Below, in pieces: positions 52,751 to 52,912 of a DNA stretch of 64,000 bases. Position 1 is the stretch's first letter, and every line of letters starts with the position of its first letter. A program made the position numbers and the translations under genes. The notes under the pieces are model-generated. The model was not told where the DNA came from, did no database searches, and was given only the letters and a program-made list of their open reading frames with translations. The stretch is taken from assembly GCF_054482595.1 (NCBI RefSeq), contig NZ_CM137008.1; one strand, written 5' to 3'.

Positions 52751-52761
52751 GGGCTGAATTG

Positions 52762-52858
52762 CCGGATGCGGCGTGAACGCCTTATCCGACCTACAAAATA
52801 GCGCAAATTTAATATATTGCACCATCCTCGCAGGCCTGATAAGCATAGCGCATCAGGT
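52762..52858. repeat. REP palindromic elements between kdpE and pgm
   Basis: gccggatgcggcgtgaacgccttatccgacctac ... gcaggcctgataagcatagcgcatcaggt. Confidence 0.8.
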
Positions 52859-52870
52859 AGTCATAAGTAA

Positions 52871-52901
52871 AAAAGGGCGATCTTGCGACCGCCCTTTTTT
52901 T
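52871..52901. terminator. Bidirectional intrinsic terminator shared by convergent kdpE and pgm
   Basis: aaaagggcg-(loop)-cgcccttttttt: a GC stem flanked by an A-run and a T-run. Confidence 0.75.
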
Positions 52902-52912
52902 ATTTAATGTGT

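What the first reader, a model, noticed from the sequence alone, without database searches (positions are those of the whole stretch)
52751..52912. kdpE directly abuts pgm: the speF-potE region expected from K-12 is absent
Only ~160 bp (REP elements plus one bidirectional terminator) separate the kdpE stop from the convergent pgm stop. In K-12 as I recall it, several kilobases lie between them, carrying ybfP, ybfG, potE and speF (inducible ornithine decarboxylase and the putrescine antiporter). The REP elements at the junction may mark a recombination site.
Basis: partly seen in the sequence, partly recalled or inferred. Interest (0 to 1): 0.5.

Follow-up and report, generated by a model that had tools for sequence, protein, structure and literature searches.

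The report
Old speF-potE-less kdpE-pgm junction allele
This E. coli strain does lack the acid-inducible ornithine decarboxylase/putrescine antiporter genes (speF-potE) between kdpE and pgm, but this is a known minority gene arrangement found in about 2% of complete E. coli genomes and in sister Escherichia species, not a new deletion.

Summary
kdpE stops at 52750 and the convergent pgm stops at 52913. The 162-bp spacer holds one REP pair (a BIME) and one bidirectional terminator hairpin. K-12-type genomes carry 5.86 kb here: speFL, speF, potE, a kdpE 3' remnant, ybfG' and ybfP.

It is not a private deletion. Among 5426 complete E. coli genomes there are four arrangements:
- kdpE-speFL-speF-potE-pgm: 3164 genomes.
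- The K-12 composite: 1820 genomes.
- kdpE-BIME-ybfP-BIME-pgm: about 241 genomes.
- The compact window type: 112 genomes, including the O145:H28 STEC lineage.

The compact spacer aligns end to end with those of E. whittamii and another Escherichia species. Direct kdpE/pgm adjacency is the usual order in 41 of 80 Enterobacterales loci. The spacer holds no speF/potE scar. The nearest complete genome (XH990, 99.97% identical) has no speF/potE elsewhere on its chromosome.

K-12's layout is itself a derived chimera. REP copies flank the ybfP indel. Nothing shows that REPs deleted speF-potE.

Verdict: an ordinary, already catalogued structural polymorphism of low interest. It does have a tidy evolutionary footprint.

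The parts
52073..52750 (+). kdpE (response regulator), last gene of kdpFABCDE; stop codon TAG
   Evidence: ORF list. RefSeq annotation of the near-identical XH990 genome. tblastn gives 99% identity to K-12 KdpE.
52673..52748 (+). Divergent 3' patch of kdpE (codon third positions). It resembles the kdpE ends of speF-less Escherichia haplotypes and the K-12 kdpE' remnant.
   Evidence: 11 differences from ET350/O157 kdpE in the last 76 nt, against 4 in the first 600 nt. The closest sequences are L005 (6 differences), the K-12 remnant (6) and E. whittamii (7).
52761..52795 (+). REP1 (GCCGGATGCGGCGTGAACGCCTTATCCGACCTACA), left arm of the BIME. It aligns with both REPs that flank ybfP in the ybfP-only allele.
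   Evidence: Exact 28-mer found 4 times in the window, 0 expected. Alignments. The blast overlap at 52759-52795 matches both L003 REPs.
52796..52829 (.). Central linker of the BIME (AAAATAGCGCAAATTTAATATATTGCACC...). The same motif is in the sister BIME at 60179-60277.
   Evidence: Alignment. 87% identity over 100 nt to the 60.2-kb copy. The assignment as an IHF-binding BIME-1/RIP linker comes from my memory and was not tested.
52830..52857 (-). REP2, inverted relative to REP1 (GCAGGCCTGATAAGCATAGCGCATCAGG), right arm of the BIME
   Evidence: Alignments. The - strand RNA of 52755-52865 folds at -45.4 kcal/mol, z = -4.6.
52869..52901 (.). Bidirectional intrinsic terminator shared by kdpE and pgm (AAAAAAGGGCGATCTTGCGACCGCCCTTTTTTT)
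   Evidence: Inverted repeat I1. Fold energies are -18 and -21.5 kcal/mol, and none of 200 shuffles folds as well. The same hairpin lies between potE and pgm in O157:H7 and NU14.
52913..54553 (-). pgm (phosphoglucomutase), convergent with kdpE
   Evidence: RefSeq annotation of XH990. tblastn gives 100% identity to K-12 Pgm.
54579..55124 (-). seqA, upstream partner of pgm. It marks the conserved right flank.
   Evidence: 100% nucleotide identity to K-12.

Best explanation
The window carries the compact allele of a multi-allelic structural polymorphism at the kdpE/pgm convergence point. In this allele the kdpFABCDE operon and the seqA-pgm operon end at one shared bidirectional intrinsic terminator. 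Only a dispersed BIME (two inverted REPs with a linker) lies between the kdpE stop and that terminator. The speFL-speF-potE module is simply not part of this allele. The strain therefore lacks the inducible ornithine decarboxylase and the putrescine/ornithine antiporter.

The allele is old. The same spacer occurs in other Escherichia species. kdpE-pgm adjacency is the general Enterobacterales gene order. I infer that the allele moves between E. coli lineages by homologous recombination in the kdp and pgm flanks. It was not created by a recent deletion in this strain.

K-12's 5.9-kb interval is a derived chimera. Its left part is a speF+ haplotype (kdpE-speFL-speF-potE-terminator). Its right part comes from a speF-less haplotype (kdpE 3' end-ybfG-ybfP-BIME-terminator-pgm).

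Shown: the anatomy, the census, orthology of the spacer across species, the chimeric nature of the K-12 layout, and the absence of any scar. Inferred: the spread by recombination, and whether the speF-less state in Escherichia is primary or a very old clean loss.
For: Census of 5426 complete genomes:
- 353 have kdpE and pgm within about 1 kb of each other.
- 112 have the direct junction. 14 of these are 100% identical to the window. The rest include the O145:H28 lineage and others at about 96% identity.
- 3164 have potE abutting pgm.
- 1820 have the K-12 composite.
- speF-potE is at least 80% covered in 5038 genomes and has no match in 295.

The XH990 chromosome is 99.97% identical to the window. 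It gives a single matching place in a sensitive blastn search with speF and potE fragments, so it has no copy elsewhere.

The whole spacer (kdpE TAG, REP1, linker, REP2, terminator) aligns column by column with E. whittamii and with Escherichia sp. L005. Mean column identity in that five-sequence alignment is 90%; pairwise, the window spacer is about 83% identical to each of the two.

Of 80 kdpE loci from GTDB species, 41 have pgm 42-1226 bp downstream with no speF. These include all Pantoea, Serratia and Dickeya loci that contain pgm. 29 loci have speF-potE.

In K-12, the sequence downstream of potE keeps the potE/pgm terminator seen in E. albertii. After it come a REP fragment and a 142-bp kdpE 3' remnant that is 88-90% identical to Escherichia kdpE.

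The window spacer has no speF/potE remnant. True deletions do leave one. Klebsiella indica keeps the last 23 codons of potE. E. coli CUVM53 keeps a truncated speF next to an IS1.

Several features point to recombination close to the junction:
- ET350 (compact) and O157:H7 (speF+) have kdpE identical over 676/676 nt up to the stop codon.
- The window and ET350 differ by 1 nt in pgm.
- They differ by 11 nt in the last 76 nt of kdpE.
Against: - speF-potE is widespread in Enterobacteriaceae, in E. albertii and in most E. coli including phylogroup B2. The Escherichia ancestor may therefore have been speF+. In that case the speF-less allele would be an old secondary loss, not a retained primitive state. 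No scar survives to decide this.
- The window's own genome outside the 64 kb was not available. Absence of speF/potE elsewhere rests on a 99.97%-identical proxy chromosome, and plasmids were not checked individually.
- No recombination-aware phylogeny was built, so spread by homologous recombination is an inference from mosaic SNP patterns in a handful of sequences.
- The census relies on BLAST piece-joining rules. About 89 genomes fall in none of the four classes.
Confidence: 0.85

Rival explanations
1. Recent, strain- or clone-specific deletion of the K-12-like 5.9-kb block (speF, potE, ybfG, ybfP) by recombination between REP elements.
For: REPs lie at the point where homology with K-12 resumes on the pgm side: window 52759 aligns with L002 9001. 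REP-REP recombination is a known deletion route (established knowledge).
Against: K-12-type and O157-type genomes have no REP next to the kdpE stop. Homology ends exactly at the stop codon and is followed by the speFL upstream region. The same junction is in 112 genomes with kdpE alleles about 4% apart, and in two other Escherichia species. K-12's layout is itself derived.
Confidence: 0.04
2. The immediate precursor of the window's sub-type (H4a) was the ybfP-only allele (kdpE-BIME-ybfP-BIME-pgm). Unequal recombination between the direct REP copies on either side of ybfP removed about 650 bp and regenerated a compact junction. This is compatible with the main explanation and concerns only the last step.
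For: The window's left flank and REP1, including the CCGACC variant, match the kdpE-side REP of L003 and L086. Everything to the right of REP1 (AAAATAGCGCAAATT..., no 11-bp ATTCTGTGTTT) matches the pgm-side of L003. Window 52759-52795 aligns to both REPs.
Against: The reverse event gives the same pattern: insertion or import of REP2-ybfP-REP3 next to REP1 of a compact allele. ybfP is absent from every non-E. coli locus examined. The compact form exists in other Escherichia species. The compact form is therefore the older state overall.
Confidence: 0.4
3. The speF-less allele of Escherichia is an ancient clean deletion from the kdpE-speF-potE-pgm arrangement. A BIME inserted afterwards. The allele was then kept as a polymorphism or exchanged between species.
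For: speF-potE sits at this exact site in 29 loci from many Enterobacteriaceae genera, with homologous kdpE-speFL spacers. Deletions do occur there, as in K. indica and CUVM53. The pgm terminator is identical in the O157 speF+ and window alleles.
Against: There is no remnant of speFL, speF or potE in the spacer. Families outside Enterobacteriaceae are uniformly empty, so an uninterrupted empty lineage cannot be excluded.
Confidence: 0.4
4. Assembly artefact: collapse of the region at repeated REP sequences.
For: REPs are repeated genome-wide.
Against: 14 independent complete genomes are identical to the window over both junction flanks (the last 150 nt of kdpE and of pgm) with the same spacing, and about 100 more are similar. 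A 4-6 kb unique segment cannot collapse on 35-nt repeats in long-read assemblies.
Confidence: 0.01

Closest known systems
E. coli K-12 pgm-kdpE interval (ybfP, ybfG', ybfI'/kdpE remnant, potE, speF, speFL)
   Same: The flanking genes kdpD, kdpE, pgm, seqA and ybfF are the same, at 96-100% nucleotide identity. The BIME and terminator next to pgm are the same.
   Different: K-12 has 5.86 kb between the two stop codons and the window has 162 bp. The K-12 layout is a chimera carrying a 142-bp kdpE 3' remnant. It is found in 1820 of 5426 genomes.
Majority E. coli / E. albertii / Citrobacter / Enterobacter arrangement: kdpE-speFL-speF-potE then about 56-110 bp and pgm
   Same: The kdpE allele can be the same: ET350 (compact) equals O157:H7 over 676/676 nt. 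The pgm terminator hairpin is the same.
   Different: This arrangement has 4.26 kb of speFL-speF-potE where the window has a roughly 100-bp BIME. The kdpE stop is TGA instead of TAG.
Compact kdpE-BIME-pgm junction of E. coli O145:H28, O157:H16 Santai, XH990, and of E. whittamii and Escherichia sp. L005
   Same: The architecture is the same and alignable end to end. 14 genomes match the window at 100% over the last 150 nt of kdpE and of pgm, with the same spacing.
   Different: The sub-types differ in three ways: the 8-10 nt between the stop codon and REP1, an 11-bp indel before the terminator, and the kdpE 3' patch.
BIME/REP elements of E. coli (bacterial interspersed mosaic elements)
   Same: REP consensus sequence, an inverted pair with a linker, an extragenic position between convergent genes, and dispersed sister copies in the same window.
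   Different: No difference was seen. Binding of IHF or gyrase and any effect on mRNA stability were not tested.

Membership tests
REP/BIME extragenic repeat | A 35-40 nt imperfect palindrome matching the E. coli REP consensus, repeated across the genome | tested here: met
   The 28-mer GCCGGATGCGGCGTGAACGCCTTATCCG occurs 4 times in the window with at most 1 mismatch, against 0 expected from shuffles. In one search the REP-containing query matched a median of 35 places per E. coli genome.
REP/BIME extragenic repeat | Two REPs in inverted orientation separated by a conserved linker (BIME) | tested here: met
   REP1 is at 52761-52795 and inverted REP2 at 52830-52857. The whole unit is 87% identical to a second copy at 60179-60277 with the same linker motif.
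REP/BIME extragenic repeat | Binding of IHF or DNA gyrase (BIME-1/BIME-2 distinction) | not testable with these tools
   The linker resembles the RIP/BIME-1 IHF motif as I recall it. There is no experimental or model-based test here.
Intrinsic (Rho-independent) bidirectional terminator | A GC-rich hairpin flanked by an A-tract upstream and a T-tract downstream, so that both strands read hairpin plus U-run | tested here: met
   AAAAAAGGGCGATCTTGCGACCGCCCTTTTTTT folds at -18 and -21.5 kcal/mol with z = -4.9 and -6.7. The simple scanner missed it because of its stem and loop limits.
Intrinsic (Rho-independent) bidirectional terminator | Transcripts actually end there | not testable with these tools
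   Needs Term-seq or 3' RACE.
speFL-speF-potE operon (inducible ornithine decarboxylase and putrescine/ornithine antiporter) | Presence of speF and potE coding sequence at the kdpE-pgm site or elsewhere | tested here: not met
   No tblastn hit in the window. The proxy chromosome XH990 gives one matching place only (kdpE and pgm) in a blastn search that included speF and potE fragments. 295 of 5426 genomes have no match at all.
Deletion scar of speF-potE | A residual fragment of speFL, speF or potE, or a mobile-element end, at the junction | tested here: not met
   blastn-short of the spacer against three speF+ loci gives only chance 8-13 nt matches. Positive controls exist in K. indica and CUVM53.

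The most novel reading that the evidence does not exclude
The kdpE/pgm convergence point hosts a long-lived, trans-species presence/absence polymorphism of the inducible ornithine decarboxylase/antiporter module. Niche-dependent selection (acid, ornithine-rich gut habitats versus others) maintains it. Homologous recombination shuffles it so intensively that linkage decays right up to the kdpE stop codon. K-12's kdpE remnant and the window's divergent kdpE 3' patch would be relics of the same ancient speF-less haplotype.
Probability: 0.3. Interest if true: 0.35.

Novelty: already known. Interest (0 to 1): 0.12.

Why it matters
There are three practical consequences.
- The strain should lack the low-pH-inducible ornithine decarboxylase and the PotE antiporter. 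These are a minor acid-response and putrescine-export route. About 6% of complete E. coli genomes, including the O145:H28 STEC lineage, share that gap.
- K-12 is a poor reference for this interval, because its layout is a minority chimera.
- For genome scanning, the case shows that a gene missing relative to K-12 can be an old segregating allele.

None of this opens a new biological question.

Tried and rejected
- An Rfam search of 50000-56000 at gathering thresholds found nothing.
- The consensus promoter/terminator scanner did not report the 52869-52901 hairpin, so folding was used instead.
- Four literature searches and two paper look-ups found no paper in the held library describing the speF-potE presence/absence polymorphism in E. 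coli. That biodegradative ODC is strain-variable is my recollection of 1970s-80s polyamine literature and is unverified here.
- A search for a speF/potE scar in the spacer was negative.
- I considered introgression from E. whittamii or the L005 species. I rejected it as a recent event, because the window's flanks are 96-100% E. coli-like and the spacer is only about 83% identical to those species.
- I considered the K-12 kdpE remnant as the product of a simple tandem duplication. I rejected this because the sequence between potE and the remnant is the potE/pgm terminator of the clean speF+ arrangement plus a REP fragment.
- My exact-identity test of the window against XH990 failed. The cause was 17 SNPs plus my wrong offset for the second locus. 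It was resolved by blast at 99.97%.
- Salmonella and E. fergusonii were not among the 80 loci returned, so they could not be used as outgroups.

Full report
**1. The observation**

The sequence shows kdpE (52073-52750, + strand, stop TAG) and pgm (52913-54553, - strand) converging on a 162-bp spacer. RefSeq annotation of the near-identical chromosome of E. coli XH990 gives the same two genes with nothing between them. XH990 is 99.97% identical to the window over 59 kb.

The spacer has three parts:
- REP1 at 52761-52795.
- An inverted REP2 at 52830-52857.
- A hairpin, AAAAAAGGGCGATCTTGCGACCGCCCTTTTTTT, at 52869-52901.

An exact 28-mer from REP1 occurs four times in the window against zero expected. 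The REP1-linker-REP2 unit has an 87%-identical sister copy at 60179-60277 with the same linker motif. It is therefore a dispersed BIME.

The hairpin folds at -18 kcal/mol on the + strand and -21.5 kcal/mol on the - strand. None of 200 shuffles folds as well, and a U-run follows on both strands. It is a bidirectional intrinsic terminator.

Rfam finds nothing in the region.

**2. The K-12 comparison**

In a K-12-lineage genome (L002) the kdpE stop and the pgm stop are 5.86 kb apart. The interval holds speFL, speF, potE, a 135-nt winged-helix fragment, the DUF2625 pseudogene (ybfG) and the lipoprotein gene ybfP.

Homology between the window and K-12 ends exactly at the kdpE stop codon (TAG versus TGA). 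It resumes at the REP next to pgm, where window 52759 aligns with L002 9001.

The winged-helix fragment is a 142-bp copy of the kdpE 3' end (L002 7500-7641). It is 88-90% identical to all Escherichia kdpE genes.

**3. How common the junction is**

I used junction-specific queries against 5426 complete E. coli genomes. They resolve four arrangements.

| Class | Arrangement | Genomes | Examples |
|---|---|---|---|
| H1 | kdpE-speFL-speF-potE, then 56 bp with the terminator, then pgm | 3164 | O157:H7, the B2 strain NU14 |
| H2 | K-12 composite | 1820 | K-12 lineage |
| H3 | kdpE-BIME-ybfP-BIME-terminator-pgm | about 241 (353 minus 112) | B1.H1.1, DSM 103246 |
| H4 | compact window type | 112 | XH990, O157:H16 Santai, O145:H28 |

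About 89 genomes fit none of the four classes. One is CUVM53, which has a truncated speF next to an IS1.

Within H4, 14 genomes are 100% identical to the window over the tested flanks. These include XH990 and O157:H16 Santai. Other members are the O145:H28 STEC lineage and further strains at about 96% identity.

speF-potE is at least 80% covered in 5038 genomes and has no match in 295. K-12's layout is therefore not the majority one. Roughly 6% of complete genomes lack speF-potE.

**4. Whether speF-potE is elsewhere**

There is no tblastn hit in the window.

I also ran a sensitive blastn with a composite query made of kdpE, the pgm 3' end, 400 nt of speF and 400 nt of potE. XH990 and most of the genomes identical to the window at the junction return a single matching place, which is the kdpE-pgm junction. 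No copy down to roughly 65-70% identity exists on those chromosomes. The window's own genome beyond the 64 kb, and its plasmids, could not be examined.

**5. Related species**

A scan of one genome per GTDB species with KdpE returned 80 loci. I located SpeF, PotE, Pgm and SeqA in them with tblastn, which gave these classes:
- 41 loci have pgm 42-1226 bp downstream of kdpE with no speF. They include every Pantoea, Serratia, Dickeya and Pectobacterium locus that contains pgm.
- 29 loci have speF, normally followed by potE, between kdpE and pgm. They come from Enterobacter, Kluyvera, Lelliottia, Atlantibacter, some Citrobacter and E. albertii.
- 3 loci have other inserts.
- 7 loci are undetermined.

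Both states occur within single genera: Citrobacter, Enterobacter, Phytobacter and Escherichia. Convergent kdpE/pgm adjacency is therefore the general Enterobacterales order. speF-potE is a patchy insert at that exact point.

E. whittamii (L004) and a second non-coli Escherichia species (L005) have the compact arrangement. Their spacers align with the window's from the TAG stop through REP1, linker, REP2 and terminator to the pgm stop. Mean column identity in that five-sequence alignment is 90%; pairwise, the window spacer is about 83% identical to each of the two. The window's flanks are nonetheless E. coli-like. They are 96-100% identical to K-12, against 90-95% to E. whittamii and 92-97% to L005. 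This is not a recent import from those species.

**6. Deletion or not**

Real deletions of the module leave scars:
- Klebsiella indica keeps the last 23 codons of potE (VTFLGWTLYGLVSPRFELKNKHG*) four bases after the kdpE stop.
- E. coli CUVM53 keeps a speF 5' fragment beside an IS1.

The window's spacer contains no speFL, speF or potE remnant. No speF+ arrangement has a REP next to kdpE. REP-REP recombination therefore cannot have produced this junction from H1 or H2.

REP copies do flank ybfP in H3. The window's REP1 and left flank match the kdpE-side REP of H3. Everything to the right of REP1 matches the pgm-side sequence of H3. A REP1 x REP3 crossover deleting about 650 bp would give exactly the window's sub-type. 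The reverse event, an insertion, gives the same pattern, so I leave the direction open at about 0.4 for the deletion. ybfP was found in no non-E. coli locus. The compact form is the older state overall.

**7. K-12 is the derived one**

Downstream of potE, K-12 retains the same terminator hairpin that lies between potE and pgm in E. albertii. After it come an inverted REP fragment and the kdpE 3' remnant, followed by ybfG', ybfP, the BIME and a second terminator next to pgm. That is the signature of one homologous and one illegitimate crossover between two haplotypes:
- an H1-type haplotype, and
- a speF-less haplotype of the form kdpE-ybfG-ybfP-BIME-pgm.

The window's last 76 nt of kdpE form a divergent patch, with 11 differences from ET350/O157 against 4 in the first 600 nt. 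Its nearest sequences are L005, the K-12 remnant and E. whittamii. This fits a shared, old speF-less haplotype family.

Other comparisons show that structure and flanking SNPs are largely uncoupled, as expected for an old polymorphism in a recombining region (inference):
- ET350 (compact) and O157:H7 (speF+) have kdpE identical at 676/676 nt up to the stop codon.
- The window and ET350 differ by one base in pgm.

**8. Mechanism**

Shown:
- Both operons face one terminator hairpin.
- The BIME is the only other content of the spacer.
- The module is absent.

Inferred from established knowledge of speF/potE:
- The strain has no low-pH-inducible ornithine decarboxylase and no PotE-mediated putrescine/ornithine exchange.
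- It relies on other routes for putrescine, such as SpeC or SpeA/SpeB. These were not checked here.
- Any role of the BIME in stabilising mRNA 3' ends or binding IHF is untested.

**9. Known or new**

The junction is annotated in more than 100 RefSeq genomes. It is an ordinary accessory-gene polymorphism.

I found no paper in the held library that describes it. My recollection is that the biodegradative ornithine decarboxylase was long ago reported to be present only in some E. coli strains. That is unverified here.

What goes beyond the known is only the tidy reconstruction: four alleles, the K-12 chimera, and the trans-species compact spacer.

**10. Verdict**

- Novelty: already known.
- Interest: about 0.12.

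The most novel reading still open is a long-lived, possibly selectively maintained, trans-species presence/absence polymorphism of the module. I give it probability about 0.3 and modest interest.

Noticed in passing
L002 (K-12-type) 7457-7641: An inverted REP fragment lies exactly between the potE terminator and the 142-bp kdpE 3' remnant. A REP therefore marks the illegitimate junction of the K-12 chimera.
   Followed up: partly
L018 (Klebsiella indica) 10679-10754: The empty kdpE-pgm site retains the last 23 codons of potE four bases after the kdpE stop. This is a clear deletion scar of speF-potE in another genus.
   Followed up: yes
NZ_CP116976.1 (E. coli CUVM53), hits H130/H131: kdpE, a truncated speF N-terminal fragment, IS1, then pgm. 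This is an example of a recent IS-associated loss of speF-potE within E. coli.
   Followed up: no
window 52673-52748: The last 76 nt of kdpE carry 11 third-position differences from otherwise near-identical alleles (ET350, O157:H7). This is a small mosaic patch resembling speF-less Escherichia haplotypes.
   Followed up: partly
window 1-9964: A cluster next to sucD encodes methylaspartate mutase (glmL, subunit E), methylaspartate ammonia-lyase, an AtuA-family protein, a dicarboxylate symporter, a class I fumarase, cobO and a LysR regulator. As far as I recall this glutamate-fermentation island is absent from K-12.
   Followed up: no
window 37213-44224: An RHS core protein gene with ybfC, an NTF2-fold immunity gene and an ISEc1 transposase lie between ybgA and ybfA. 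This is a variable toxin/immunity region upstream of kdp.
   Followed up: no
window 60179-60277: Sister copy (87%) of the kdpE-pgm BIME with the same central CGCAAAyTyAATATATTGCA linker. Further REP copies are at 17292-17319 and 34789-34816.
   Followed up: partly
L088 1077-1211 and L089 2974-3108: In speF+ genomes of the O157/NU14 type, PGAP annotates a 44-aa hypothetical ORF overlapping the start of speFL. It is not annotated in the K-12-type locus.
   Followed up: no
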